From assembly GCA_008501835.1 (NCBI GenBank), contig QQUB01000450.1:1-36428 (forward strand): a stretch of 36,428 nucleotides of DNA. Direction: 5' to 3'. Each line of letters starts with the position of its first letter. Position 1 is the stretch's first letter. Origin of the DNA: Bacteroidota bacterium. GTDB taxonomy: Bacteria; Bacteroidota; Bacteroidia; Chitinophagales; Saprospiraceae. Positions 1-27,427 of this stretch are shown here, piece by piece. Position numbers and translations under genes: made by a program. The notes beneath the pieces are model-generated. The model saw only the letters and a program-made list of their open reading frames with translations, was not told where the DNA came from and made no database searches.

Positions 1-1520
1 CATCTATTAATCCAGGAGCAGCGGAAGTTTGTGACGGCATTGATAATAATTGTAATGGCTTAGTTGATGAAGGATTTGATCTGGATGGCGATGGAGTTAG
101 TTCTTGTGGCGGCGATTGTGATGATTACAATGCTTCTGTCTATCCGGGAGCTCCGGAAATCTGTGATGGCCTGGACAATGATTGTGATGGTAGTGTACCT
201 GGAGATGAAGTGGATAATGATGGGGATGGATATTTGTCATGCAATGATTGTGATGATACTGACCCGGCTCTAAACCCGGGAGCGGTTGAAATTATAGGCA
301 ACGGTATAGATGATAATTGTGACGGGTTAGTGGATATACTTCCATATTGTACGCCAACAAATTATTATGCATGTTATTATATGTGGATTTCCAATGTGAC
401 CCTGGAAGAAATTAACAACACTTCTGGTTGTTCTTCCGGGTATTCAGATTATACATCCATGATTGCATCAGTATTACCAGGTGCCACTTACAACATATCT
501 TTTTCAGTTAGTAATTACAGTCAATACGTAAGTGTGTACATTGATTGGAATCTTGATGGTGATTTTAATGATGCCGGGGAAAATGTAGTTAATAATACCT
601 ATGTCTATTATTACTCTACAGGTTATGCAAGTTTTACAGTTCCAGCCGGTGCTAAAGGAGATTACACCATGAGAGTAATATCCGATTACTACTACATTAA
701 TGATCCTTGTTTCACCTATTACGGAGAAGTGGAGGATTATAGAGTTAGTTCCTGTGACGATCCTGATGATGATGACGTTTGTGGAGATGACGATAATTGC
801 CCGTATGATGCCAACCCAGACCAGTTAGATACAGATGGTGATGGATTGGGTGATGCATGTGATCCGGATGATGACAATGATGGCTGTCTGGATGGAGAAG
901 ATGATAATCCTCTTGTAGCAAGTGTGGATACAGATGGCGATGGTGATGCCGATGATTGTGACGATGATGATGATAATGACGGCATTCCGGATGAATGCGA
1001 CACAGCTCCGCTCGTGGACAACTATGTCTTCAATGGAATAGATGAAGATTTCCCTGCACAATGGCTATGTGGTAATAACAATAACAAAGTACTGGTTTGC
1101 CATGTGCCTCAAGGTAACCCAGCGAATGTACAAACCATTTGCATCAGTCCAAATGCAGTATCAACTCATGTTGGCAACCACGGTGGTGATTACCTTGGCG
1201 AATGCTCTTGTACTGAAGAAAACGAAGGGTTTGCGCAAAACATCAATACCAACCCTGTTTCGTCTCATGTACTCAAGGTTGACGTTTTCCCGAATCCGGC
1301 CAACACGGAAGTGAATTTCCATATGGATGGTATTGGCAAGGAAGGAACACTGGTTATCTTTGATCATCTGGGCCGTCAGGTATTGACACAGCGACTGGTA
1401 GAGTACCAGCATAACCTGCAGCTTGACCTTACAGGACCACAATTCCAAAGTGGAATCTACTTCGTATCGATCATCTCAGAAGGTGAAAAGATGATGAAGC
1501 GTTTTGTAGTAACGAAATAA
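1..1520 (+). CDS. Secreted multidomain surface protein, 5'-truncated by the window edge: MopE-like Cys/Asp metal-binding repeats, GEVED domain, thrombospondin type-3 Ca-binding repeats, T9SS C-terminal sorting domain
   Basis: The frame of the listed 210..1520 ORF stays open back to nt 3 ([31 protein letters not shown]...), so the gene enters from the left edge. It has repeated CDDxDxx[IVL]xPGAxExCDGxDN[DN]C[DN]G units, [10 protein letters not shown], and [34 protein letters not shown]3-type repeats. It also has the Cys motif [37 protein letters not shown]. The C-terminus [14 protein letters not shown]...GIYFVSI...KRFVVTK is a Por/T9SS tail. Confidence 0.85.
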
Positions 1521-10606: not shown

Positions 10607-12271
10607 ATGAAAACAGTTCTCTTTCCAAATAGAATTTTGAGCATTTTATTTGTATTACTCCCGGTTTTATTGATTGGACAGAATAGATTTTCCTGGGAAA
10701 ATGAATTTACCAAAATCGTGCATTATCCTATTATCGATTTCATTGAGTTAAATGGTTCTATATATGCTGTTTTTAAAAACAATTTTGGTTTTAGCGAAAT
10801 AACGGTTAACAACAGTGTCGTCATTAGAAAGATTGGAATGGATTTGGAAATTGAAAAGGAAGAAAAACAAAAATTGCACCATGGTAAGAAGCCAATGGGG
10901 ATCCAAAAGCTATTCAGTTATAACAATGATTTATTCATTTTAGGTAAGGTTGGCACAGGAAAACTGAAAGAACAATGGTTTGTGGTAATGGAAATGGATA
11001 CTTCCGAACTCACTCTAGGTAAAAAACGATTTGAATTTTTTACAGACAAAGATATTCCACAGTTTTTTTTCCCTGTTCAAGATGGTTCAACCGAAACCGG
11101 CAAAAATGATGGCTTTGTTTTTGTTTCGAAATTTATTGAAAGAGGAGATTCTATAGTTTCAATGGATATTTTTTATTTGGATGAAGCATTTGAAAATGAA
11201 AAAAAGTTTAATGTATCCTTGGATTTGAAGGGGCAGGAATTTGATATTAAGAAAGTATATTTTGATGGCGTAGATCAAATTTTTCTTTCAGGATATGAAA
11301 GGCCTAAAATAAGAAAGGCTAGTCTTTTTAGAACCTCTAATAAAATTTCTAATGGACATTTTTGGAGTATAAACATAAAGAGTGGAGAAGTAAACCATAC
11401 AGTATTACAATTAGATGACTTTGATCAAGGTGAAGAGAGAAAATATATAAGGGATTTTGATTTTATGGTTAAGGAGGGTTGGGTTTATATTTTTGGAATA
11501 TATTCTGAAACAGAATGGAAGCCAATGGAATATTCTCAGTCTGGGAAAGGACTATTCTTCCAAAAGATTTCACAGTTGGATCATAAAATCCAAAACTTTT
11601 TCTATCCCATTGAAGACGAAGTTATAAAAGATCATAATGAAACCAATGAAGAAAGAAAAGTGAGAAGAGAGATTCCTGATCTCGAAATAAACGATTTAAA
11701 GATCAATGAAATAGTTGAATTTGAGTCAAACGGGTTTTTAATATTTACAGAAGTCGGATATGAAAGAGTATCCAGTTCAGGGGGGCGTTATACCGGACCT
11801 AATTCTCGTTCGACACCAACTTCCGCGTATGAAAGCCATTATTCTGTTTCGAAAGATCTGATCGTTTTCCATTTAGATAAATCCGGGGAACAAATATGGC
11901 AAAGTCATATTGCAAAAAGGGATCAGAGTGAAGTCAACTATTTTCCTCCAGCAGGGTCATATTTCTACTTTATGGGAGAAAATCAAATCCAAGTATTTTT
12001 TATGGCGCCGGATTTTGCTTTCAAAAATTCAGAGTATTCTATAGCAAAAATTAAACCTATCAAATGGAATAGTTATTACAATATGGTTTTGTGCCAGGCA
12101 TCTATGAATTTACAAAATGGAAACACTGAATATAATATAATAAATACCACCTCGGGGACAAAGACTATGATACTTTCTCCTAAAGTGACTAAAAAAATAT
12201 CCTCCAACCGTTATATAGTTTTAGGTAGGATGAGAGCTAAAGCAAAATTTGGAATAATTGAAATAGAATGA
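10607..12271 (+). CDS. Hypothetical exported protein (AT-rich orphan gene)
   Basis: 554 aa with N-terminal signal-like MKTVLFPNRILSILFVLLPVLLIGQ. The long ORF lies in very AT-rich DNA. I recognise no motif. Confidence 0.6.
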   Translation: MKTVLFPNRILSILFVLLPVLLIGQNRFSWENEFTKIVHYPIIDFIELNGSIYAVFKNNFGFSEITVNNSVVIRKIGMDLEIEKEEKQKLHHGKKPMGIQKLFSYNNDLFILGKVGTGKLKEQWFVVMEMDTSELTLGKKRFEFFTDKDIPQFFFPVQDGSTETGKNDGFVFVSKFIERGDSIVSMDIFYLDEAFENEKKFNVSLDLKGQEFDIKKVYFDGVDQIFLSGYERPKIRKASLFRTSNKISNGHFWSINIKSGEVNHTVLQLDDFDQGEERKYIRDFDFMVKEGWVYIFGIYSETEWKPMEYSQSGKGLFFQKISQLDHKIQNFFYPIEDEVIKDHNETNEERKVRREIPDLEINDLKINEIVEFESNGFLIFTEVGYERVSSSGGRYTGPNSRSTPTSAYESHYSVSKDLIVFHLDKSGEQIWQSHIAKRDQSEVNYFPPAGSYFYFMGENQIQVFFMAPDFAFKNSEYSIAKIKPIKWNSYYNMVLCQASMNLQNGNTEYNIINTTSGTKTMILSPKVTKKISSNRYIVLGRMRAKAKFGIIEIE

Positions 12272-13457: not shown

Positions 13458-14540
13458 TCAATAATTCACCCCTCTCAGAATATACTCCAGGTGTTGCATA
13501 TAGTCCCGCTTGGCCTTATTTGGTGCCAGGACAAATCCGTCTACATATAATAGTTCCTTTTTCTCAGGGTTATGTACCAGATAGCTGATGAATGGGCCGG
13601 CCATGTAATCATTGACCATTTCCCAAATGCCTCGAGCTTCCAGCACATAGTTTCCATTGACGGTTTTTACGGAAGTGAACATTGGCAGATCCGTATCATT
13701 GATCTTCACAAAACTTCCTTCAATAGTGGAAGAGATGTATTTTCTTCCAATATCATCCCGGATCTTTTTGAGACCTTCCGGTGTCAGTTGGCCCTGATCG
13801 GTATAGGGAACAGTGGTGATCAGAAGATTGCTGTTGTATTTGTCACTACTTCTTCTCAGCCACATCACATCACCATCATCAACCGCCTGCATGTAATCTG
13901 CAGGGATAGACAGGTCGGCTCCAAAATTCGTTAATGCACGGTTTTGAGCAGTGATATTGTTTCCGGAATGGAAAACGGCCCTTTCGATCAACGGTAAATC
14001 GTGATCCAGAATCTTCTTGGATACTCCGGGGAAGTTATCCACAATATTTTGCGCAAGCTGATCATGTGACCACGCAAACTGATAGAAGACAAACTGATTC
14101 TTGGCCCAACGGTCCTTACTGACCGGGCAGTTGTAGGAAAGATCTTCCTTGGATCGCTGAATGTTTGCTTCGCCGAGGTCTTTTTTGACCAATTGAGTGG
14201 TTTTTGAATCATCATCATTGAGGTTGGCAATGATGATGTAATTGGTCAATTCTTTCAGCAATGGCTGATGGTCAATATTGTCAGGAGTAAAATGTCTTAG
14301 GTCAAAAAGTGGCTCTGGTTGAGGAAGGATCAGGTATGGCCCCTGGTAGTAATACCTAAGGCTATCTCCGACGTGGCTTTCCCACATTTCCAGATCACAA
14401 ATGACATTGATTTGGTTTACTTTTCCGACCGCTACAGGAACAGGTCGGAAGCTATCGGTTACCTCATTCTGGCAACCCGAAACTAAAAGTACAAGTGCCA
14501 AGAAGCTTACCAGGTGGAATTGAAACTTATGCATATTCAT
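13458..14540 (-). CDS. Hypothetical lipoprotein (possibly DUF4837-like)
   Basis: The ORF runs to 14585, but MNMHKFQFHLVSFLALVLLVSGCQNE (start at 14540) gives a clean lipoprotein signal with a lipobox Cys. The family assignment is from memory only. Confidence 0.6.
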   Translation of the reverse strand: MNMHKFQFHLVSFLALVLLVSGCQNEVTDSFRPVPVAVGKVNQINVICDLEMWESHVGDSLRYYYQGPYLILPQPEPLFDLRHFTPDNIDHQPLLKELTNYIIIANLNDDDSKTTQLVKKDLGEANIQRSKEDLSYNCPVSKDRWAKNQFVFYQFAWSHDQLAQNIVDNFPGVSKKILDHDLPLIERAVFHSGNNITAQNRALTNFGADLSIPADYMQAVDDGDVMWLRRSSDKYNSNLLITTVPYTDQGQLTPEGLKKIRDDIGRKYISSTIEGSFVKINDTDLPMFTSVKTVNGNYVLEARGIWEMVNDYMAGPFISYLVHNPEKKELLYVDGFVLAPNKAKRDYMQHLEYILRGVNY

Positions 14541-14705
14541 TACGACGACTATTAATTTAATTTTCAAAAATAATACATTATACATGGCTCCGGAAATTTA
14601 AGGATGCAAACCAGTAAATCAACGGATTATGGGGCTTGCCTGCTGCATTTGGCAGGGTTGCTGATCGTTTCCTATTAGATGCCGGCCTAATCATTTTTGG
14701 TGGGA

Positions 14706-14816: not shown

Positions 14817-15788
14817 TTAAAACAGGCTTTTGATCACATCTTCTTCTGTGATGCCTTCCGCTTCGGCCTTATAATTTCTTACGATCCTGTGGCGAAGTAC
14901 GAAATTGGCGATAGCCTGTACATCTTCGATATCCGGTGAATATTTACCGTGGATAGCCGCATGACATTTCGCACCCAATACAAGGTATTGAGATGCCCTT
15001 GGTCCTGCTCCCCAGGAAATATACTGGTTGACCATATCTGTTGCCCGGTCAGTTCCCGGACGAGTTTTGGTTGACAGGGAAACTGCGTATTCAAGCACAT
15101 TATCTGCTATAGGGATCTTGCGGATCAATTTCTGGAAGAAAAGAATCTGCTCTCCGGTAACTACATGCTTGAGGTCATTCTGCTGAACAGTGGTTGTTGC
15201 TTTTACAATATCAATTTCCTCATCGTAAGATGGGTAATCAAGGAATATATTGAACATGAAACGGTCCAGCTGTGCTTCAGGCAGTGGGTAGGTTCCTTCC
15301 TGCTCAATTGGGTTTTGTGTTGCCAAAACGAAGAACGGTGCCGGCAATTTATGAGTGTCACCACTTACTGTAACCGACCTTTCCTGCATAGCTTCCAAAA
15401 GGGCAGCCTGTGTTTTAGGAGGTGTACGGTTGATCTCATCTGCCAAAACGATATTGGAGAAGATTGGTCCGCGATTGAATTTAAAATGGCGGTCTTCATC
15501 GAGGATCTCTGAACCGGTAATGTCCGAAGGCATCAGGTCAGGAGTGAACTGAATACGTTTGAAATCCAGGTCCAATACTTCGGCAATGGTACTTACGAGC
15601 AATGTTTTCGCCAATCCGGGTACCCCGACCAGCAAACTGTGTCCGTTGCTGAAAAGGGAAATGATCACTGCCATCACTACTTCATCCTGCCCCACGATCA
15701 CCTTACCTACTTCGCTTTTGAGGTCTTTATATGATTGTGCCAACGCGTCAACCGCTTCTACATCTGATTTAAATTCCAGTTTTGACAT
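14817..15788 (-). CDS. MoxR-family AAA+ ATPase
   Basis: 323 aa. VGQDEVVMAVIISLFSNGHSLLVGVPGLAKT (Walker A), RIQFTPDLMPSDITG and IVLADEINR (Walker B) are the AAA_3/MoxR pattern. Confidence 0.9.
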   Translation of the reverse strand: MSKLEFKSDVEAVDALAQSYKDLKSEVGKVIVGQDEVVMAVIISLFSNGHSLLVGVPGLAKTLLVSTIAEVLDLDFKRIQFTPDLMPSDITGSEILDEDRHFKFNRGPIFSNIVLADEINRTPPKTQAALLEAMQERSVTVSGDTHKLPAPFFVLATQNPIEQEGTYPLPEAQLDRFMFNIFLDYPSYDEEIDIVKATTTVQQNDLKHVVTGEQILFFQKLIRKIPIADNVLEYAVSLSTKTRPGTDRATDMVNQYISWGAGPRASQYLVLGAKCHAAIHGKYSPDIEDVQAIANFVLRHRIVRNYKAEAEGITEEDVIKSLF

Positions 15789-16790: not shown

Positions 16791-16809
16791 CGTTCAATTG
16801 CCTGTTGCC

Positions 16810-18426
16810 ATGATAAATAAGCTTAAAGATATAGATAATCGTTGGTTGTATATAGCCGCGGTATTGATATTAATTCCGGCTTTATTCATTAATCTTGGAT
16901 TGATGTCTTTCATCGATGATGAGGCCATCAGGGCGTTGGTTGCCCTGGAGATGAAGATGTCCGGCAATTATATCGTGCCTACCATGCACGGGGCCTTCTA
17001 TTACAGTAAACCTCCCTTATTCAACTGGATACTCATCATTTTTTACAATCTCAGCGGAGTGGTTAATGAGTGGACGACCAGGATTCCTACCACACTGGCG
17101 TTGATGGGCTACGGTTACACCATTTTTTATTATTTCAGGAAACATTTTGATACCTATACGGCAGTTGTAAATGCTTTTGTGCTGATCACCTGCGGCCGTA
17201 TTCTGTTTTGGGATTCGATGCTGGGGCTCATAGACATTACCTATTCATGGGTGACTTTTACGGCGTTTATGGTGGTTTTTCATGAATTTAAAAAAGGGAA
17301 TTTCCTGCGGCTGTTTGTGCTATCATACCTTTTGACCGGCATTGGTTTTATGCTGAAAGGGTTCCCTTCTATACTTTTCCAGGGATTCACCTTGCTAACC
17401 TGGTTTTTGGTGGAAAAACAATTCAAAAAACTCTTTACCTGGAAGCATATTTTGGGAGGACTTGTTTTTGTAGCGATAGTAGGGAGTTATTATTTCTTTT
17501 ATTTCAATTACAATCAGACGGAAAGAGTTTTTGAAGGTCTTGCTCAGCAATCTACTACCAGGACTTTCATCGATCAGGGATGGTGGAATACTTTTGAGCA
17601 TTTGTTTACCTTCCCATTTGAAATGCTCTACCATTTTCTGCCATGGTCGTTATTGATCATCCACTTTGTCAGAAAAGATATTCGTTCCCAGATTCAGGAG
17701 AATAGGTTTATTTTTTATCTCCTGGTAATATTCCTGGTCAATATTATTGTGTATTGGACATCCCCTCAGGTTTATCCGAGATATGTATTGATGCATGCTC
17801 CTTTGTTATTTGGGGTGTTTGTTTATTTACATCAAAAGAATAAGGGCTCGTTACAGTTTAAATTGGCAGAAGGGGCATTCTTCCTTTTTGTTGCCGTTTT
17901 TGTCGGGATTTCATTTCTCCCGTTTTTCATGAAGGATCTTCAGGATCAGCCAAATTATCTGCTAAAAACTATTGTGGTGATGATACCGCTGTTTCTTTCG
18001 GCTTATTTATTCGTCGTGAAAAAGGACAGCAGGCTGTTGCTCCTGGCTATTTTCCTGCTTATTGCAAGGGTAGGGTTTAATTGGTTTGTACTTCCCGAAC
18101 GCAATGCTGAGGACAGCGGTGCTATCGTAAAGGAAACATCTGTGGAAATCGGGAACCAGTACAAGGATAAGCCGCTTTATATTTTTAATAATACCCGTAT
18201 GCAGCCGGCTAATTCTTTTTATTTGACCGTTACCAAAGGGGAAATCATCCATTTTTGCCGGGATACATTACCTCAAGGCGCTCCATTCATTCTTGACCCT
18301 TCAAGAAATGAAGACCTTGAATATCAAAAACTCGGCGAGATCTACATGCGTCATTTGGATCAGAGGTATTTCGATGTAGGTAAATTGCGAGGGAACAAGG
18401 AAATAAGGAACGAGGGAATAAGGTGA
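16810..18426 (+). CDS. ArnT/PMT-like GT-C fold glycosyltransferase (polytopic membrane protein)
   Basis: About 538 aa with many TM helices. The first periplasmic-loop motif DDEAIRALVALEM and YYSKPPLFNW are typical of GT83/GT39 enzymes. The listed ORF begins at TTG 16798, and the ATG at 16810 is preferred. Confidence 0.75.
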   Translation: MINKLKDIDNRWLYIAAVLILIPALFINLGLMSFIDDEAIRALVALEMKMSGNYIVPTMHGAFYYSKPPLFNWILIIFYNLSGVVNEWTTRIPTTLALMGYGYTIFYYFRKHFDTYTAVVNAFVLITCGRILFWDSMLGLIDITYSWVTFTAFMVVFHEFKKGNFLRLFVLSYLLTGIGFMLKGFPSILFQGFTLLTWFLVEKQFKKLFTWKHILGGLVFVAIVGSYYFFYFNYNQTERVFEGLAQQSTTRTFIDQGWWNTFEHLFTFPFEMLYHFLPWSLLIIHFVRKDIRSQIQENRFIFYLLVIFLVNIIVYWTSPQVYPRYVLMHAPLLFGVFVYLHQKNKGSLQFKLAEGAFFLFVAVFVGISFLPFFMKDLQDQPNYLLKTIVVMIPLFLSAYLFVVKKDSRLLLLAIFLLIARVGFNWFVLPERNAEDSGAIVKETSVEIGNQYKDKPLYIFNNTRMQPANSFYLTVTKGEIIHFCRDTLPQGAPFILDPSRNEDLEYQKLGEIYMRHLDQRYFDVGKLRGNKEIRNEGIR

Positions 18427-21952: not shown

Positions 21953-24900
21953 ATGTCTAGACCCAAGAAAAACTTCAAGAGGAAAACTATCTTGAATCCT
22001 AAAGAAAGAACCAATCAATTTCCTTCTGTAAATTTAACTAGAAACCTTTTGCAGAGACATGGTGCAAGGGTGAAAAGTATCTATTTGGAGTTAAAAAATT
22101 ATAGATTTTATCATAGCCCTTCAAATAGATTGAATCCTGATAAAAGGTTTGTTGGTAGGGGTGAAATGAAAAAAAAGTTAGAAAACCTTATCACAAAATC
22201 TCAAACGAATTCAGGGACCTATCTTGTTACCGGTTTTAGAGGGATGGGAAAAACAAGTTTGGTGAATAAAGTCCTTTCTGATTTATTGAACCAGCAGAAT
22301 GCATTATATGTTCTTAAAGTCGTTTTTAGCTACCTTGTTGTTGTTTGGTTGTCTTCTTTTTTTACCATCCAAGCAGTGTTCGTTTTTTCCCTATTAGGGG
22401 TATTAGCATTCATTTATATGCTGTCAAAAAAATCTGAAGTTTCTCAAAAAAGAAGACTTAAAACTCAGGTATTAGATATTTTAAAAATTTTCGTCAACCC
22501 ATTCGAAAACGAATTGGAAAATAGTGCAAAAAGAGTTTTTGCAACAGGTTTTTCTCGAATTGGTATTGTATTAATATTTTCAAGTTTGGCACTTTTCCTT
22601 ATTAATTATCAAAAATTTGTTGCGAAATACTCGGGAAAAATTGAAGGACAAATAATTTCATATTCTGAAAAAATCAAGGTATTTATAATTGCTCTTGGGG
22701 CATATTTTTTTATTGTGATAATCATCGAACTATTTAATTTTTTCAGATACCATAGAAAAAATAATAATGAATCCAATCCATTAAATCAGAATTCGAATAA
22801 AAGAGCAAGGGGATATTTTTTTGTGATGTTCTTTTTCCTAATGACAATACTTTCATTTGTTATTATTGTCAAAAATGGATCGCCAATTCCATCTTGGATA
22901 TATACACCTTCAATAATAATTTTTTTAATAATTCTCTTAATTTTAATTTTTGGGAATCATTCAAAAAAAATATTTCACTCCTTTGTAAATAATAGTAATA
23001 TTATTCCTGTATATATAAATCTCGGAAAGGAAAACCTTTCAGAGGAGGATATTTTAAAGCTTGTAACTTATGGTTTATATAATAGCTATAAGAGAATTGC
23101 TTTACCATTCAGTTATATTAAAAGAGGATTATGGTCGTTGGGTGTAGGAATAATGGTTTACTTAATTGGATCAACTTTTTATTTCTTTGAACCTACCTAT
23201 AAGTTATTTAATGATTGGAGAATGAGGAGTAATTTGGTTTATTACTTTCCTAGTCAAACCCATTTTCTTAAGGGCGTTAATTTATCAGATGAATTAGCTA
23301 TTAATGTTATTGATACATTAGACGATACAAGGTTCCCAGATTCAACATTTTTAGAAAATTATTACACTATTGTAGTTCAAAATAAGATGGAAATTGGACA
23401 GGGTTTTTCCATTCAAGATAATTTCCTTGCTTTTACTGTTACATTGGATTACTTTTTATTAAGTATTTACGTAAATACTATCCGACCATTTATTCGGGCA
23501 GGGTTGATAAAAAATGATTCAATTAATACAGGCCCTCTTTATATTTTATCTAATACTCTAGGGTTACATCCCAATTTTAGGTTTATTCCAAGATATGATT
23601 TTCTTTTTCTCATGTATATATTATTCTTTTCTTATTTTTCTAGATGGCTTTTGAGATCAAGAGTTTGGGGTGTAAGTCATCGTGCCATTCTCAAAAAATT
23701 GAAAAACCTTGTAGATAGTCTTGAGGCAGAAATTGATATTGGAAAGGGTAGAAATATGGCAATTAATTATCCTGAAAAACTTTTTTCACTTGGCTTTACT
23801 TCGAATAAAAAGAAGAGTTATCCAATAAAAAGCGCACCAGAAATAGAAATAACCCTTATTGAAATTTTGAGAGAAATCGAGTCAATCCCAAAGCTCAGAA
23901 TGCGACCAAGATTTGTATTCATTTTTGATGAATTGGATAAGATTCAACCTCGAGAACTAAATGACAAGGATAATAACAATAACCCAAAGGATTATTCAGA
24001 ATCAGAATGGACAAAGAAAAGGCAAGACACAATTGGTACTATTTTAGCAAACCTTAAGCACTTCTTTAATTCAGCTAAAGCGAAATTTATTTTTATTGCC
24101 GGTCGAGAAATGTATGATGCAGCCCTGGCAGATATTTCAGATAGAGATGCCTTAATTGGAAGCCTATTCCATGAAGTTATTTATGTTCATAGTTTTTATA
24201 AAGACCCTGCCGATGAGAGGTTATCGGACATAACCTCAATGACTGAACGTTATATTTGTCAATTTTTGATTCCAGAAGAAGAGTTGGATGATGATCCTAA
24301 TTTGAGTAAATATAATAGTTATCTTTTAAAAAATGTTAATAAGTTATTTGAGAAAGAACAAAATAAAGAATTAGCTATTGCTAAAATAATTATGTCTCTA
24401 CATAATTTTATTTCGTATGTCTCTTATAGGAGTAACGGGGCCCCAAAAAAAATCACCAAAATTTTTGAGGAATATATCAAAGGGTATCCAGATAAAAAAA
24501 CTGACTTTGCAAGTACTATAATTACCAGAAGAGATGAAAATAGTTTGTATTTACACTTTAGCTTTAATGATCAATATATTTTTAGTGTTGGAAGGTATTT
24601 ATTTAATCCTTTTGTTATTGCAGTAAATAAATATATTAAAGCTTTTGAAGACAAATTGTTGGTTTCAACATCTTTTCTATTAAATCATATTTATAAATTT
24701 CATAAAGTGGGTTTTTCTCATAAAACCTTAGAACTTACTCCTGAAATTATTGCAATTTATAAAGCTCCCGAACTTAGAGATTTTATAAATCGATTGATTA
24801 CCTTTTTAAGTCAGACCCACCTTCGAAAAATTTTAAGTGGCTTGTACGACTTTAAATTTTATAGTCGCATTGAAAAAGAAATAGCTTATATCTCTAAAAT

Positions 24901-27427
24901 CTCCGAATCAGAGTCTGCTGCTTTTAATTTCACCCTTGACGAATCCCTAATTATAAAAAGTATTTTTAGAAATAAACTAAACAAGGTTAGAAAGTACTGG
25001 GGTAGTGAAATTGAGACAAAGGTACATGTTGAATCTGTAGCATTTATTAATAATAATTTGGGAGATTTAAGTTTTAATGATGCTAAGTATTTTGAAGCTA
25101 TTCATTATTACAAAGAGGCTTTAGTTAAAATTGATAATACCCAGATTAAGGAATTATCACCTGATCTTTTCATTTTCTTGATTAGAACCGAGTTAAAATT
25201 GGGACTTGCCTACGAAATGATAAAAAATGCAGACGAAGCCTTGATGATTTATGATGATATTAGCAGAAAAGCTATTGATTATATTCGACAGCGACATATA
25301 AAATACAATAAGGAAAGTTGGACAAAGGATCTGAAAAAAACTGAATTAATTACAATTCTTAGGTTATTTTATCAGCCTTTACTGGCAAAAATGCAATTAA
25401 TTGAAAAAAGTACAATAAAAAGTTTGACGAAAACTCAGCTTAGAGAAAACCTAGTCTCGTTTAAGCATATTATTAATGATTACCTTTCTCCGGAGCAAAA
25501 TTTTTTACTTAGAGCGGAGTATTATGATAAAATTGGTGACCTGCTTTTTTATAAAAATGGCATTCCATTTGGTAAATTTGAGAAGGGTGAGGAGGCCGGA
25601 GAAACAGACCCAAGGTTTTTTAAAGACATTCAAGAAGGTAGGTTAAACCATGAATATTTTTATTCATTGCCAGTTGGTGCGTACTATAGATATATGGTCA
25701 GTCTGACTTCTTTAATACATGTCGGTATCTCTCAGCAGCTCGACGAAAATGTAAAGATTAATTATTTTGATATTACTAAGCCCCATGAGTCTGACTGGCT
25801 TATTATTCATTATTTCACGAGTTTTTTATTCAACAGAATTGGAAAGACTTTTCCCATATCAAGGAAATCCTTCTTCCTCGCAGCTGGAAATAGCTTATCT
25901 GATGCTGGAAATACAATTCTTTCAATTATTTCGGCCGAAATTAACACTAACCCTGTTGAATTAAATTTACTTGATGTGAAAAAGTTGAAAAGGGTTTTAA
26001 GTTTTAAGATGAAAGGAGAAGGTGGGGAGGAAGCTTTAACTTTTGCTGGAGAGAATCAAATTGCGACTCTCAAAGTGGAGACAGAGAATGAACAAGAAGG
26101 AGTTTTGCATTTAAGAGAGAAAGTTAATAAGTTCTATGGAAAATTTGACCTTTGTAGGTTACATACAGCTTTAAGGTATATATATATTGCAGCAATCTAT
26201 TTTGAAAGGGCCGGAGATTATAAAGGTTTTGTGTTTCAATTATCCAAGATTTTACACGTTTTGAGGCTTATTGTTCTAAAGGTTGTTCAAAATGAAGGTG
26301 GAGCAGAACAAGTTCAAGCTCAAGCTTTTTTAGATTTTTTGAATGAGTATGTTGTCTATAAAGCTATAAGGTATAATTATAAGGCATATAAGAATTATGA
26401 CCATTCAGAAGCACAGCAATTGAAAAATTCTTTAGGTTTTGTTAACTACGAAGGTAACCAAAAAATGGAATTAGAAAAGGTTATTAAAGCTTCCACTTCA
26501 GCGGCAGAGGATATAAAGGAAATATTATTAATATACGCTGATATAAAACTCAAGTTATTTCCTGAAGAATATTTAGAATTAGAGGATGGCTTAATAAATC
26601 CATATACCAATGTAAGCTTGAGAGGAAATCGGTTGTCGGAATTGAATTATAAGAGTCATTTTAACTACAAATACCTTAAGAAATTAACTTCAGGGATTAA
26701 ACCGAATTCGAACAGAGAAAAAAGATCGGAAAGTATAATTGCACTAAAACCAATTATTAACCGATACGAGGCAAAAGAAATTATTGATAGAATTTTAGAT
26801 GGTTTTTCAAATGGTAGATTTAAAGATTTAGAAAAATTGGAGTTTATTATTTTAGATTCTATTTTCATTTTGTATGAAATGAGGCTAACTATTGAAATAT
26901 TCGGTCAATCTTATATTCATAATCATAGTTGGTATGCTTCCATTTATAGAAGGTTAGGGTTTTGGAGCATGCTATTTCATGAATATGTGGCTGGGGTTAA
27001 ATCTAGGGAAAACAAGGACTCTAAAGAGGAGAAGGATAATCGTAATAAACCTATTATTCCTAAGGTTTTTCCAAAGGGAAGGTCTCAAGTCGTGGAGGAA
27101 TTGTTAAAGAAATTAATTGGTCAGGAAGAGTTTACAGATTTAGATTCTATCTCCTTTTACGAAAAAGCTCTTAAACACTGTTATAGTATTTATGAAACTC
27201 ATTCGGAGGGACAAGCGTATCAGGATTTTATTCAGGAAATGAACTACCTGGATGATGATTTTAATGATAATTTATATCACTTCTCAGCAACCTTAGAGCG
27301 GATGCGAATAAATTTTGATATGGTAAAAAATCATATCGATGATCTTAGTGAGGTGATAAAACTAAATAAAAAAAGATTTTATTTTGAGTCCTTTTTCACA
27401 CATTTGGAAAAAACTGTAATAAATTAA
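21953..27427 (+). CDS. Giant membrane-embedded STAND/KAP-like P-loop NTPase with a TPR-like helical C-terminus (no assignable named family)
   Basis: An uninterrupted 5,475-nt ORF in roughly 30% GC DNA. In order: FVGRGEMKKKLENLI lead-in, Walker A LVTGFRGMGKTS, about 6 hydrophobic helices, strand-like IIPVYINL, about 3-4 more hydrophobic helices, Walker B FVFIFDELD, sensor-1-like FIFIAGRE, GxP-like SNGAPKKITKIF, and TPR-like NNLGDLSFNDAKYFEAIHYYKEALV. Confidence 0.8.
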   Translation: MSRPKKNFKRKTILNPKERTNQFPSVNLTRNLLQRHGARVKSIYLELKNYRFYHSPSNRLNPDKRFVGRGEMKKKLENLITKSQTNSGTYLVTGFRGMGKTSLVNKVLSDLLNQQNALYVLKVVFSYLVVVWLSSFFTIQAVFVFSLLGVLAFIYMLSKKSEVSQKRRLKTQVLDILKIFVNPFENELENSAKRVFATGFSRIGIVLIFSSLALFLINYQKFVAKYSGKIEGQIISYSEKIKVFIIALGAYFFIVIIIELFNFFRYHRKNNNESNPLNQNSNKRARGYFFVMFFFLMTILSFVIIVKNGSPIPSWIYTPSIIIFLIILLILIFGNHSKKIFHSFVNNSNIIPVYINLGKENLSEEDILKLVTYGLYNSYKRIALPFSYIKRGLWSLGVGIMVYLIGSTFYFFEPTYKLFNDWRMRSNLVYYFPSQTHFLKGVNLSDELAINVIDTLDDTRFPDSTFLENYYTIVVQNKMEIGQGFSIQDNFLAFTVTLDYFLLSIYVNTIRPFIRAGLIKNDSINTGPLYILSNTLGLHPNFRFIPRYDFLFLMYILFFSYFSRWLLRSRVWGVSHRAILKKLKNLVDSLEAEIDIGKGRNMAINYPEKLFSLGFTSNKKKSYPIKSAPEIEITLIEILREIESIPKLRMRPRFVFIFDELDKIQPRELNDKDNNNNPKDYSESEWTKKRQDTIGTILANLKHFFNSAKAKFIFIAGREMYDAALADISDRDALIGSLFHEVIYVHSFYKDPADERLSDITSMTERYICQFLIPEEELDDDPNLSKYNSYLLKNVNKLFEKEQNKELAIAKIIMSLHNFISYVSYRSNGAPKKITKIFEEYIKGYPDKKTDFASTIITRRDENSLYLHFSFNDQYIFSVGRYLFNPFVIAVNKYIKAFEDKLLVSTSFLLNHIYKFHKVGFSHKTLELTPEIIAIYKAPELRDFINRLITFLSQTHLRKILSGLYDFKFYSRIEKEIAYISKISESESAAFNFTLDESLIIKSIFRNKLNKVRKYWGSEIETKVHVESVAFINNNLGDLSFNDAKYFEAIHYYKEALVKIDNTQIKELSPDLFIFLIRTELKLGLAYEMIKNADEALMIYDDISRKAIDYIRQRHIKYNKESWTKDLKKTELITILRLFYQPLLAKMQLIEKSTIKSLTKTQLRENLVSFKHIINDYLSPEQNFLLRAEYYDKIGDLLFYKNGIPFGKFEKGEEAGETDPRFFKDIQEGRLNHEYFYSLPVGAYYRYMVSLTSLIHVGISQQLDENVKINYFDITKPHESDWLIIHYFTSFLFNRIGKTFPISRKSFFLAAGNSLSDAGNTILSIISAEINTNPVELNLLDVKKLKRVLSFKMKGEGGEEALTFAGENQIATLKVETENEQEGVLHLREKVNKFYGKFDLCRLHTALRYIYIAAIYFERAGDYKGFVFQLSKILHVLRLIVLKVVQNEGGAEQVQAQAFLDFLNEYVVYKAIRYNYKAYKNYDHSEAQQLKNSLGFVNYEGNQKMELEKVIKASTSAAEDIKEILLIYADIKLKLFPEEYLELEDGLINPYTNVSLRGNRLSELNYKSHFNYKYLKKLTSGIKPNSNREKRSESIIALKPIINRYEAKEIIDRILDGFSNGRFKDLEKLEFIILDSIFILYEMRLTIEIFGQSYIHNHSWYASIYRRLGFWSMLFHEYVAGVKSRENKDSKEEKDNRNKPIIPKVFPKGRSQVVEELLKKLIGQEEFTDLDSISFYEKALKHCYSIYETHSEGQAYQDFIQEMNYLDDDFNDNLYHFSATLERMRINFDMVKNHIDDLSEVIKLNKKRFYFESFFTHLEKTVIN
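22232..22258 (+). other. Walker A (P-loop) coding segment GFRGMGKTS, aa 94-102 of the giant ORF
   Basis: ggt ttt aga ggg atg gga aaa aca agt. It is preceded by the hydrophobic strand TYLVT and the FVGRG lead-in. Confidence 0.75.
22301..22954 (+). other. First membrane insert of the giant ORF: six hydrophobic 17-24-aa segments (aa ~117-334)
   Basis: ALYVLKVVFSYLVVVWLSSFF, AVFVFSLLGVLAFIYML, VFATGFSRIGIVLIFSSLALFLINY, IKVFIIALGAYFFIVIIIELFNFF, GYFFVMFFFLMTILSFVIIV, WIYTPSIIIFLIILLILIFG. These were called by eye, with no TM predictor run. Confidence 0.65.
23129..23653 (+). other. Second membrane insert of the giant ORF: three clear hydrophobic segments plus one weak one (aa ~393-567)
   Basis: GLWSLGVGIMVYLIGSTFYFF, NFLAFTVTLDYFLLSIYVNTI and YDFLFLMYILFFSYFSRWLL are clear. 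GPLYILSNTLGL is weaker. Confidence 0.55.
23909..23938 (+). other. Walker B coding segment RFVFIFDELD, aa 653-662 of the giant ORF
   Basis: A hydrophobic strand followed by D659-E660. About 50 aa later comes AKFIFIAGRE, a sensor-1-like hhhhxGR. Confidence 0.65.

What the first reader, a model, noticed from the sequence alone, without database searches (positions are those of the whole stretch)
22232..23938. Two separate membrane inserts split the ATPase core, raising a topology-parity puzzle and a possible periplasmic loop
Insert 1 begins about 15 aa after the Walker A helix and contains six hydrophobic segments. An even number returns the chain to the cytoplasm for the IIPVYINL strand. Insert 2 shows three clear segments (aa 393-412, 489-510, 548-567) plus a weak one (aa 527-538). 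An odd count would leave Walker B on the wrong side of the membrane, so a fourth helix or a re-entrant loop is implied. The roughly 75-aa loop at aa 413-488 (EPTYKLFNDWRMRSNLVYYFPSQTHFLKGVNLSDELAINVIDTLDDTRFPDSTFLENYYTIVVQNKMEIGQGFSIQD) would then face the periplasm and could be an extracytoplasmic sensing or contact surface. KAP NTPases, as I recall them, have a single insert of 2 or 4 helices. A second insertion point would be new.
Basis: inference. Interest (0 to 1): 0.7.

Follow-up and report, generated by a model that had tools for sequence, protein, structure and literature searches.

The report
Membrane-threaded giant STAND/KAP-like ATPase

Summary
ORF 21953-27427 (+) has Walker A at aa 94-101 and Walker B at aa 654-662. 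Two hydrophobic inserts lie between them, separated by a conserved strand-helix unit (IIPVYINLG, aa 350-383). Insert 1 has six TM helices. Insert 2 most likely has two (aa 389-412, 548-568), not three or four: 86 of 104 relatives have exactly two. The positive-inside rule puts the whole aa 413-547 loop outside. So there is no parity problem, and the predicted periplasmic loop is larger than proposed.

AlphaFold2 (pLDDT 78, pTM 0.78) calls all five core strands as strands. With both inserts removed in silico, the core passes the Pfam cut-offs for AAA_16 and KAP_NTPase and aligns to ORC4 across the junction.

Relatives have both inserts, either one, or none, so these are two permissive loops with modular gain and loss. 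Human KIDINS220, the KAP prototype, already has two TM hairpins 114 residues apart, so a second insertion site is not new. The C-terminal 824 residues form an alpha-solenoid with no recognisable effector domain. The gene stands alone and has atypical GC content. Function is inferred, not shown: a Tmn/PifA-like membrane conflict sensor.

The parts
21953..27427 (+). Whole gene: 1,824-aa membrane-threaded P-loop ATPase plus alpha-solenoid. GC is 30.4%, against 41.6% in the flanks.
   Evidence: ORF list. GC and GC3. It aligns full length with homologues of 1,400-2,400 aa.
22061..22213 (+). Conserved cytosolic N-terminal lead-in (aa 37-87), including strand aa 42-46 and helix aa 70-81.
   Evidence: Alignment occupancy is about 0.9 from aa 35. 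AF2 strand and helix, pLDDT 80-93. The database gene call P0001 starts at aa 60 and would cut this region.
22214..22288 (+). Strand beta1, Walker A (GFRGMGKT, aa 94-101) and helix alpha1 (aa 100-112).
   Evidence: Invariant R96, G97, G99, K100. AAA_16 hit over aa 65-131. AF2 strand aa 88-94 and helix aa 100-112.
22295..22954 (+). Insert 1: six TM helices in three hairpins (AF2 helices aa 115-134, 139-164, 192-226, 237-274, 281-308, 314-332), placed in the alpha1-to-beta2 loop.
   Evidence: Hydropathy. AF2 helices. K/R-rich loops at aa 158-196 and 264-287 are predicted cytosolic. The insert varies from 0 to 10 segments across the family and is only 36% identical to the closest homologue.
23000..23101 (+). 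Core strand beta2 (IIPVYIN, aa 350-356) and helix alpha2 (aa 364-383), cytosolic, between the two inserts.
   Evidence: Family motif I-x-I-N-L-G with occupancy 0.9. AF2 strand with pLDDT about 91. It aligns with beta2 of ORC4 once insert 1 is removed.
23117..23188 (+). TM7 (aa 389-412), predicted to run from inside to outside.
   Evidence: Hessa sum 1.9. Conserved as hydrophobic in the family. AF2 helix with pLDDT 88-91. K/R is enriched on its N-terminal side.
23189..23593 (+). Predicted extracytoplasmic loop (aa 413-547, 135 aa) with a semi-conserved YFPSQ motif (aa 431-435).
   Evidence: Positive-inside statistics over 87 relatives. Loop length is 10-367 aa in the family. No Pfam domain was found. 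It evolves fast: 47% identity against 86-91% in the core.
23411..23497 (+). Long helix aa 487-515 inside the loop. It is most likely a loop-domain helix, not membrane-spanning.
   Evidence: Borderline Hessa sum of 4.75 in the query only. Relatives carry K/R at aligned positions 492, 493, 504, 508, 510 and 511, with conserved D499 and Y506. Only 4 of 104 relatives show a third segment.
23594..23656 (+). TM8 (aa 548-568), predicted to run from outside to inside.
   Evidence: Hessa sum 3.4. Conserved as hydrophobic. AF2 helix with pLDDT 90-92. It is followed by the K/R-rich stretch RSRVWGVSHRAILKKLK.
23657..23908 (+). Conserved cytosolic linker (aa 569-652) with helices aa 576-590 and 628-643, leading into Walker B.
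   Evidence: Alignment occupancy 0.9. It is present in the insert-less relative P0032. AF2.
23909..23941 (+). Strand beta3 and Walker B (FVFIFDELDK, aa 654-663).
   Evidence: Invariant D659, E660, D662, K663. AF2 strand aa 653-659 with pLDDT about 94.
24083..24109 (+). Strand beta4 with a sensor-1-like G717-R718-E719.
   Evidence: Nearly invariant in 61-103 sequences. AF2 strand aa 711-717.
24110..24952 (+). Strand beta5 (aa 741-745) and helical or winged-helix-like domains (aa 720-1000) carrying an invariant GxP motif (G829, P831). This is the most conserved part of the protein.
   Evidence: It is 91% identical to the closest homologue.
24953..27424 (+). C-terminal all-alpha solenoid (aa 1001-1824, TPR/HEAT-like), with no recognisable enzymatic domain.
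   Evidence: AF2 pLDDT 84, pTM 0.88, helices only. Only weak solenoid-type fold matches: CRM1, nucleoporins, LGN TPR, APC. Faint TPR Pfam hits.

Best explanation
The gene encodes a single-polypeptide, inner-membrane-anchored ATPase switch of the AAA_16/STAND-like (ORC/Cdc6-type) kind.

Architecture. Its P-loop domain is interrupted at two helix-to-strand loops. Six TM helices sit between helix alpha1 and strand beta2. A TM hairpin (TM7 and TM8) bracketing a 135-aa extracytoplasmic loop sits after helix alpha2, ahead of the conserved linker that leads into strand beta3 (Walker B). The topology is N-in with eight TM helices. Walker A, strand 2, Walker B, sensor 1 and the roughly 1,250 residues after TM8 are all cytoplasmic.

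Geometry (inferred). In the P-loop fold every helix-to-strand connection lies on the edge of the sheet opposite the nucleotide site. Both inserts therefore leave the domain on the same face. That face is pressed against the membrane, and the ATP site and the side faces used for oligomerisation stay free. This would explain why these two loops are permissive and why relatives carry TM hairpins at site 1, site 2, both or neither.

Function (inferred by analogy, not shown). The C-terminal alpha-solenoid, possibly together with the outside loop, binds a trigger. Nucleotide-dependent oligomerisation then brings the TM bundles together and perturbs membrane or ion homeostasis, as described for Tmn and PifA. 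No separate effector domain or partner gene is present.
For: Shown:
- Two inserts separated by a conserved strand-helix unit.
- The AF2 model has pLDDT 78.4 and pTM 0.78. All five core strands (aa 88-94, 350-356, 653-659, 711-717, 741-745) are called as strands at pLDDT of about 90 or more. There are six long helices in insert 1 plus TM7 and TM8.
- 86 of 104 relatives have exactly two hydrophobic segments in insert 2.
- Insert 1 counts are mostly even: 0 in 10 relatives, 2 in 34, 4 in 19, 6 in 23.
- Positive-inside rule: 3.63 and 2.98 K+R on the cytosolic flanks against 1.95 and 1.69 on the loop flanks. The cytosolic side is richer in 75 of 87 relatives.
- A natural insert-less relative, P0032, keeps every core block.
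- The in-silico spliced core passes AAA_16 (33.6 bits, cut-off 32.6). It also passes KAP_NTPase (26.3 bits, cut-off 20) in one continuous alignment from Walker A to Walker B. It aligns to ORC4 across the insert-1 junction.
- Nearly invariant sensor-1 G-R-E and an invariant GxP motif.
- Weak fold matches are all AAA+/STAND proteins: CED-4, ORC/Cdc6, Apaf-1, RdrA, BrxC.
- The C-terminus is an alpha-solenoid.
- No conserved neighbour in 80 loci.
- GC3 of 25.8% against 42-46% in neighbouring genes.

Analogy: Tmn has TM helices inserted after Walker A plus solenoid arms, forms a membrane decamer and defends against phage (PMC13001434). KAP-domain proteins defend against phage in a Walker-B-dependent way (PMC13552941).
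Against: - No model coordinates were available. Sheet assembly is inferred from DSSP strand calls and confidence values, not from measured contacts.
- Whether helix aa 487-515 lies in or on the membrane in this particular protein is unresolved. Its hydrophobicity (4.75) exceeds anything in the soluble part.
- My TM calls use a simple hydropathy scan, not a trained topology predictor. 15 of 104 relatives give odd counts in insert 1, probably threshold noise.
- The sequences used for the positive-inside test are related, so the p-value overstates independence.
- Function is analogy only. There are no PADLOC or YobI hits. Only about 10 of 123 immediate neighbours in other genomes look defence-related. 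In this window the neighbours are housekeeping genes.
Confidence: 0.7

Rival explanations
1. Insert 2 crosses the membrane three or four times: aa 393-412, 489-510 and 548-567, plus a weak helix or re-entrant loop at aa 527-538. Only aa 413-488 would then be periplasmic, and aa 511-526 would be cytosolic.
For: In this protein alone, aa 492-510 has a Hessa sum of 4.75, more hydrophobic than any 19-mer in the soluble 1,120 residues. AF2 builds a 29-residue helix there. Three other relatives also show a third segment.
Against: - aa 527-538 is not hydrophobic (sum above 8).
- Relatives have K/R at five or six aligned positions and a conserved mid-helix Asp in the aa 492-510 segment.
- 86 of 104 relatives have exactly two segments.
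- A three-TM version would put Walker B outside the cell, which cannot work for an ATPase.
- The four-TM version needs a 12-residue polar stretch to span the bilayer.
Confidence: 0.12
2. Same architecture, but a housekeeping role rather than a conflict or defence role. For example, an ATP-dependent scaffold for envelope, gliding or secretion machinery, or for signalling, at the Bacteroidota inner membrane, comparable to the scaffold role of KIDINS220 in animals.
For: - The core and solenoid are strongly conserved over their full length in many phyla, including a conserved C-terminal DDDFND motif.
- There is usually a single copy.
- Neighbours are mostly housekeeping genes, with no strong defence-island signal.
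- No effector domain is present.
Against:
- GC and GC3 in this window are strongly atypical, which implies recent horizontal acquisition.
- There is no conserved operon partner, which a machine component would normally have.
- Its closest characterised design analogues among bacterial proteins, Tmn, PifA and EF_KAP, are all phage-defence proteins (PMC13001434, PMC13552941).
Confidence: 0.3
3. The P-loop assignment, or the idea of inserts, is wrong. The hydrophobic stretches would belong to an unrelated membrane domain fused between two non-homologous pieces, and the Walker-like motifs would be coincidental.
For: The native protein has only a sub-threshold AAA_16 hit that covers Walker A alone. 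Whole-model fold matches are weak, with E of 0.02 or more.
Against: - Walker A, Walker B and GxP residues are invariant, and sensor-1 G-R-E is nearly invariant, across 61-103 sequences.
- The spliced core passes two Pfam cut-offs collinearly.
- Insert-less and single-insert relatives exist.
- AF2 places all five strands with high confidence.
Confidence: 0.03

Closest known systems
KAP family P-loop NTPases (Kidins220/ARMS, PifA; Pfam PF07693; Aravind et al. 2004, cited from memory and via PMC13001434 and PMC13552941)
   Same: - TM helices are inserted inside the P-loop domain between Walker A and Walker B.
- These are large multidomain proteins with repeat arrays.
- KIDINS220 has two TM hairpins (500-520/525-545 and 660-680/686-706) separated by 114 cytosolic residues and flanked by Walker A and B (PMC11408833, PMC10707181). 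That is most simply the same two-site layout.
- The spliced query core and 5 of 24 relatives hit PF07693.
   Different: - The native query has no PF07693 hit.
- The hits that do occur cover only profile positions 3-168 of 293, from Walker A to Walker B.
- The family profile matches PifA only at the Walker A motif (hhalign probability 5.6%).
- Here site 1 holds six helices (0-10 in relatives). Site 2 carries a 135-aa outside loop (10-367 aa in relatives), where KIDINS220 has 4-5-residue loops.
- The region after Walker B looks STAND-like: sensor-1 Arg and a GxP motif.
Tmn / YobI-family transmembrane P-loop NTPases (PMC13001434)
   Same: - A TM hairpin is inserted right after the Walker A helix, equivalent to site 1 here.
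- The ATPase is held at the inner face of the membrane.
- A long C-terminal alpha-solenoid arm follows.
- It is a single-gene system with no separate effector domain.
   Different: - No YobI Pfam or PADLOC Tmn hit.
- Tmn has two TM helices at one site, not eight at two sites, and no sizeable outside loop.
- This protein is about twice as large.
- Oligomeric state and any ion-export activity are unknown here.
STAND / AAA_16 NTPases with TPR sensors (Avs/bacterial NLR-like proteins, Apaf-1/CED-4, ORC/Cdc6-type AAA+)
   Same: - AAA_16 is the best Pfam match: 23 of 24 relatives, and the spliced core is above the cut-off.
- nSTAND1, NACHT and NB-ARC give faint hits.
- There is a sensor-1 Arg and a GxP motif.
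- The layout is an NTPase, then helical domains, then a TPR-like solenoid.
- The best, though weak, fold matches are CED-4, ORC/Cdc6 and Apaf-1.
   Different: As far as I know and could find in the literature library, canonical STAND proteins are soluble with an uninterrupted NTPase domain, and usually carry an N-terminal effector. This protein has no N-terminal effector and has eight TM helices inside the NTPase domain.

Membership tests
KAP NTPase (PF07693) | P-loop NTPase with Walker A and Walker B | tested here: met
   GFRGMGKT at aa 94-101 and FVFIFDELDK at aa 654-663. The key residues are invariant in 61-103 sequences.
KAP NTPase (PF07693) | Two or four TM helices inserted within the NTPase domain | tested here: met
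   TM helices lie between Walker A and Walker B, but there are eight here. Relatives have 0 to 12.
KAP NTPase (PF07693) | Match to the Pfam KAP_NTPase model above its gathering score | tested here: inconclusive
   - Native query: no hit at E<=1.
- Artificial spliced core: 26.3 bits against a cut-off of 20, but only profile positions 3-168 of 293.
- Relative P0103: 31.2 bits.
- 5 of 24 relatives hit at E<=0.1.
KAP NTPase (PF07693) | Specific similarity to a prototype member (PifA) beyond the Walker A motif | tested here: not met
   hhalign of family alignment A3 against F-plasmid PifA gave 38 aligned columns around Walker A, probability 5.6%. The PDB holds only the KIDINS220 ankyrin part, residues 1-432, so that prototype could not be compared.
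STAND / AAA_16-type AAA+ NTPase | Match to AAA_16 or STAND NTPase models | tested here: inconclusive
   - AAA_16 scores 31.1 bits on the native protein, just under the 32.6 cut-off.
- It scores 33.6 bits on the spliced core.
- 23 of 24 relatives hit AAA_16. 10 of 24 hit nSTAND1 faintly, and NACHT and NB-ARC are faint.
STAND / AAA_16-type AAA+ NTPase | Sensor-1 arginine after strand 4 and a GxP motif in the helical domain | tested here: met
   G717, R718 and E719 are nearly invariant and G829 and P831 are invariant in the family alignments. Equating these with the STAND motifs is my inference from position in the AF2 secondary structure.
STAND / AAA_16-type AAA+ NTPase | C-terminal superstructure-forming repeats | tested here: met
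   An 824-aa all-alpha solenoid with pLDDT 84. TPR/HEAT-type fold matches. Faint TPR Pfam hits.
STAND / AAA_16-type AAA+ NTPase | Structural match of the NTPase module to solved STAND or ORC proteins | tested here: inconclusive
   The top Foldseek hits are CED-4, ClpX, ORC/Cdc6 and Apaf-1, but at E=0.02-0.1 and TM-score of 0.25 or less. The 530-residue inserts degrade the alignment.
YobI / Tmn | Sequence match to YobI-type NTPase or Tmn defence models | tested here: not met
   No YobI family among the Pfam hits at E<=1. PADLOC gives only a faint mad8 hit and no Tmn.
YobI / Tmn | Two TM helices inserted in the P-loop domain after Walker A, followed by a solenoid arm | tested here: met
   Site 1 is at the same position, and a C-terminal solenoid is present. 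This is architectural resemblance only.
YobI / Tmn | Membrane oligomer that triggers ion export or plasmolysis on phage sensing | not testable with these tools
   This requires expression, phage challenge and structural work.

The most novel reading that the evidence does not exclude
The fast-evolving extracytoplasmic loop between TM7 and TM8 (10-367 aa across the family) is a true outside sensor. TM7 and TM8 connect directly to helix alpha2 and to the linker preceding Walker B. The loop could therefore gate the cytosolic STAND-like ATPase switch from outside the cell. That would make this family a bacterial outside-in transmembrane NLR-like receptor, detecting for example phage adsorption or injection, or envelope damage. 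Gain and loss of hairpins at the two sites would tune this coupling.
Probability: 0.15. Interest if true: 0.8.

Novelty: new variant of a known kind. Interest (0 to 1): 0.4.

Why it matters
P-loop ATPases with TM helices threaded through the catalytic domain are rare. They have only recently become experimentally tractable: Tmn in 2026, and KAP-domain defence proteins in 2025-26.

This family has about 700-1,000 clusters at 50% identity, mostly in Bacteroidota, and almost all members are annotated as hypothetical. It offers a natural series of closely related proteins with no insert, a site-1 insert, a site-2 insert, or both. TM counts run from 0 to 12 and outside loops from 10 to 367 aa.

That series is a ready-made comparative system for two questions. 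How does membrane insertion couple to ATP hydrolysis? Which loops of the fold tolerate it? If the family is a defence or conflict system, it would add a large single-gene membrane sensor in a phylum where defence is poorly mapped.

For the scan itself, the useful result is that the headline puzzle (odd parity, new insertion site) is not real.

Tried and rejected
- The founding KAP paper (Aravind et al. 2004) could not be read under its PMC id, DOI or PubMed id. Its content is cited from memory and from papers that cite it.
- KIDINS220 structures in the PDB cover only residues 1-432, the ankyrin repeats. The position of strand 2 between its two TM pairs could therefore not be checked directly.
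- A profile search of PDB sequences with alignment A2 gave only TPR-type noise.
- A second homologue search, seeded with the KAP-positive relative P0103, returned only 16 family fragments and no classical KAP proteins.
- tblastn of the spliced core against 72,556 plasmids found no match.
- The promoter and terminator scan was uninformative, with counts at shuffle level, and Bacteroidota promoters are not covered by it.
- Model coordinates are not exposed to the Python sandbox. Strand pairing and the depth of helix aa 487-515 could not be measured.
- Long outside loops in relatives contain no Pfam domain. The DAO and alpha-amylase-C hits in P0012 and P0022 are C-terminal fusions or read-throughs, not loop domains.
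- I rejected the idea that insert 1 is a conserved transporter-like domain. The number of helices varies from 0 to 10, and identity to the closest homologue is only 36%.
- I rejected an operon-partner model. The largest neighbour cluster spans 4 of 80 loci, and that cluster and at least one of the 3-locus clusters look like fragments of the gene itself.
Full report
**1. What is there**

The finding lies inside one intact ORF, window 21953-27427 on the + strand, 1,824 aa. No other ORF of at least 100 aa overlaps it on either strand.

The coordinates are exact. nt 22232 is the first codon of the Walker A motif GFRGMGKT (aa 94-101). nt 23938 is the last base of the codon for D662 in the Walker B strand FVFIFDELD (aa 654-662). 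About 550 residues therefore separate the two Walker motifs. In an ordinary P-loop domain the distance is roughly 60-100.

A 19-residue hydropathy scan (Hessa biological scale and Kyte-Doolittle) gave these results:
- Six strongly hydrophobic segments in aa 117-334.
- Two more at aa 393-411 and 550-568.
- A borderline one at aa 492-510 (sum 4.75).
- No 19-mer below 6 in the 1,120 residues downstream of aa 700. The signal is well above this protein's own background.

**2. The split is a family trait, and the pieces are one domain**

A protein search returned 104 homologues of 1,230-2,400 aa. Nearly all are unannotated or named 'hypothetical', 'ATP-binding' or 'P-loop NTPase fold protein'.

An exhaustive search counts 716 clusters at 50% identity with E<=1e-30 and 1,024 with E<=1e-10. 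They are mostly Bacteroidota: Saprospiraceae, Cytophagales such as Dyadobacter, Runella, Spirosoma and Ekhidna, Flavobacteriales and Bacteroidales. Others are magnetotactic Nitrospirota, Ignavibacteria, Calditrichia and further groups.

In the alignment the conserved blocks are:
- aa 37-115 (Walker A);
- aa 346-385 (IIPVYINLG plus a helix);
- two hydrophobic helices at aa 393-412 and 548-567;
- aa 573-650;
- Walker B;
- everything from aa 700 to 1000, including a nearly invariant G717-R718-E719 after strand 4 and invariant G829 and P831.

AlphaFold2 on aa 30-1000 with 60 homologues gave pLDDT 78.4 and pTM 0.78. DSSP calls strands at aa 88-94, 350-356, 653-659, 711-717 and 741-745, all at pLDDT of about 90 or more. 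It shows six long helices in insert 1 and helices at aa 389-410 and 550-568. I had no access to the coordinates. Pairing of the strands into one sheet is therefore inferred from the strand calls and confidence values, not measured.

Three sequence-level controls support it:
- A natural relative, P0032, lacks both inserts yet keeps every core block in order.
- When I removed both inserts from the query in silico, the 563-aa core passed the Pfam gathering scores. AAA_16 scored 33.6 bits against 32.6. KAP_NTPase scored 26.3 bits against 20, in one alignment running from Walker A to Walker B.
- The spliced core aligns to Drosophila ORC4 straight across the insert-1 junction. IIPVYINL falls on ORC4 strand 2 (E=0.005).

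**3. The parity puzzle**

I anchored each of the 104 sequences on Walker A, strand 2 and Walker B and counted hydrophobic 19-mers at a relaxed threshold.

| Region | Result |
|---|---|
| Insert 2 | 86 have exactly two segments, 10 have none, only 4 (including the query) have three |
| Insert 1 | 0 in 10, 2 in 34, 4 in 19, 6 in 23, 8-10 in 3; 15 have odd counts that look like threshold noise |

The column-by-column view of the query's aa 487-515 segment is informative. Relatives most often have Arg or Lys at aligned positions 492, 493, 504, 508, 510 and 511. Asp499 is present in 55 of 90 and Tyr506 in 67 of 90. In the family this is a polar-bearing loop helix. The query happens to have Leu, Ala, Ser, Asn and Ile at five of the six basic positions and keeps Arg at 511.

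The positive-inside rule agrees. Over 87 members with two segments, the 15 residues before TM7 and after TM8 carry 3.63 and 2.98 K+R. The loop-side flanks carry 1.95 and 1.69. The cytosolic side is richer in 75 of 87. The sequences are related, so the p-value is only indicative.

The simplest topology is N-in with eight TM helices and the whole aa 413-547 segment outside. No fourth helix or re-entrant loop is needed. Its length ranges from 10 to 367 aa in the family (median 125), and it has no Pfam domain. With insert 1, it is the fastest-evolving part. Against the closest homologue the loop is 47% identical and insert 1 is 36% identical, while the core blocks are 86-91% identical.

**4. Two permissive loops**

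The family contains every combination:
- Both inserts: most members.
- Site 2 only: P0040, P0048, P0057, P0060, P0064, P0065, P0066, P0084 and P0103, with 2-4 helices. This group includes both proteins with a precomputed KAP Pfam hit.
- Site 1 only: P0046, P0051, P0052, P0063, P0067, P0068, P0069, P0071 and P0072.
- Neither: P0032.

From the established topology of the P-loop fold, all strands are parallel, the nucleotide sits at their C-terminal edge, and the helices return to the opposite edge. Both insertion points, the alpha1-to-beta2 loop and the loop after alpha2, therefore lie on the edge away from the ATP site. Both TM bundles can enter the same membrane while the catalytic and oligomerisation faces stay free. 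This is inference, not a measurement.

**5. Rest of the protein and its context**

Residues 1001-1824 are predicted as an all-helical solenoid (pLDDT 84, pTM 0.88). It has only weak TPR/HEAT-type fold matches and no enzymatic domain.

No neighbour is conserved. The largest cluster among the flanks of 80 loci covers 4 loci, and that cluster and at least one of the 3-locus clusters look like fragments of the gene itself.

In the window the gene sits between an FkbM-type and a TehB-type methyltransferase, in an ordinary Bacteroidota chromosomal region with ThrRS, sugar-acid catabolism genes and a T9SS-sorted protein. Its GC is 30.4% against 41.6% in the flanks. Its GC3 is 25.8% against 42-46% in neighbouring genes, which points to recent horizontal acquisition.

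Of 123 immediate neighbours in about 65 other genomes, roughly ten hit defence models: WYL, PDC-M49A, AbiLi, a type I methyltransferase and a phospholipase. This is suggestive in a few loci, but without a baseline it is not a defence-island signal.

**6. Comparison with what is known**

*KAP NTPases.* They are defined by TM helices inserted in the P-loop domain (Aravind et al. 2004, which I could not open). Published KIDINS220 coordinates place TM helices at 500-520, 525-545, 660-680 and 686-706 within the KAP domain at aa 440-953 (PMC11408833). Walker A and Walker B lie juxtamembrane on either side (PMC10707181). Strand 2 and helix 2 have nowhere to be except the 114-residue cytosolic stretch between the two hairpins. 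The prototype most likely already uses the same two sites. I could not test this directly.

Membership of this family in KAP is only partly met:
- The native query has no PF07693 hit.
- The spliced core and 5 of 24 relatives do hit, but only over the Walker A to Walker B half of the model.
- The family profile matches PifA only at Walker A.

*AAA_16/STAND.* The features here are at least as strong:
- 23 of 24 relatives hit AAA_16.
- There is a sensor-1 Arg and a GxP motif.
- The C-terminus is a TPR-like solenoid.
- The best fold hits are CED-4, ORC and Apaf-1, although they are weak.

*Tmn/YobI.* It is the nearest design analogue with a worked-out mechanism. It has a TM hairpin after Walker A and solenoid arms, forms a membrane decamer, and causes Mg2+ export and plasmolysis on phage sensing (PMC13001434). 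No sequence relationship was detected.

I found no paper describing this family in the library searched.

**7. Verdict**

- The split, the even count in insert 1, strand 2 and an outside loop all hold.
- The parity puzzle is an artefact of reading one sequence.
- The 'new second insertion point' claim does not hold.

What remains of interest is a large, unannotated clade with an unusually elaborate version of a known design (8 TM helices, a big outside loop, a giant solenoid). It also provides a natural series of insert gain and loss at two sites. Function is unknown. My best guess, a Tmn/PifA-like single-gene membrane conflict sensor, rests on analogy, sporadic distribution and atypical GC. 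I hold it at about 0.35-0.4, against about 0.3 for a housekeeping scaffold role. Novelty is a new variant of a known kind. Interest is 0.4.

Noticed in passing
window 21953-22130 (aa 1-59 of the ORF): The public gene call for this protein (P0001, 1,765 aa) starts at aa 60. It would remove a region that is conserved across the family (occupancy about 0.9 from aa 35) and contains a confident AF2 strand (aa 42-46). The true start is probably the ATG at 21953 or another start before aa 30.
   Followed up: partly
window 21953-27427 against its flanks: The gene has 30.4% GC and 25.8% GC3, against 41.6% and 42-46% in neighbouring genes. It looks like a recently acquired single-gene insertion. In two homologous loci the contrast is much smaller: 37.7% against 39-40% in L001, and 26.4% against 31% in L002.
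   Followed up: yes
window 10607-12271 (+): A 554-aa ORF with no Pfam hit at E<=1e-5 coincides with a second local GC dip (33% at 11001-12000). It may be another foreign or orphan gene.
   Followed up: no
window 16798-18426 (+): A 542-aa ORF with a TTG start has no Pfam hit. It lies just upstream of thrS.
   Followed up: no
window 210-1520 (+): A protein with a GEVED domain and a Por_Secre_tail (type IX secretion sorting) domain. This marks the window as Bacteroidota chromosomal DNA.
   Followed up: partly
window 14817-15788 (-) and 13458-14585 (-): A MoxR-type AAA_3 ATPase gene has a 375-aa ORF directly downstream on the same strand. This could be a MoxR plus partner pair. The partner was not annotated.
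   Followed up: no
P0032 (1,368 aa, Logan assembly): A natural family member with no TM segment at either insertion site but all core blocks intact. It would be useful as a soluble reference for structure and biochemistry. I did not check whether it is full length or functional.
   Followed up: partly
L077:11829-13865 and L082:7739-9775: In two Bacteroidales/Prevotellaceae genomes a 679-aa gene lies at the homologue's 3' end (9 bp away in L077). Two neighbours in the scanned set hit the PADLOC candidate defence family PDC-M49A very strongly (E=1.8e-248). I attribute those hits to these two ORFs from their size and shared cluster, since the scan output does not say which members matched. This is the only recurring defence-like neighbour seen.
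   Followed up: partly
P0012 aa 1962-2273; P0022 aa 2032-2096: Two relatives carry extra C-terminal domains: an FAD-dependent oxidoreductase (DAO) and an alpha-amylase C-terminal beta domain. These are either real fusions or gene-call read-through into the next gene.
   Followed up: no
L009 and L010 (Candidatus Magnetocorallium paracelense): Two paralogues of the giant gene lie on different contigs of one magnetotactic Nitrospirota genome. Candidatus Magnetobacterium species also carry the family.
   Followed up: no
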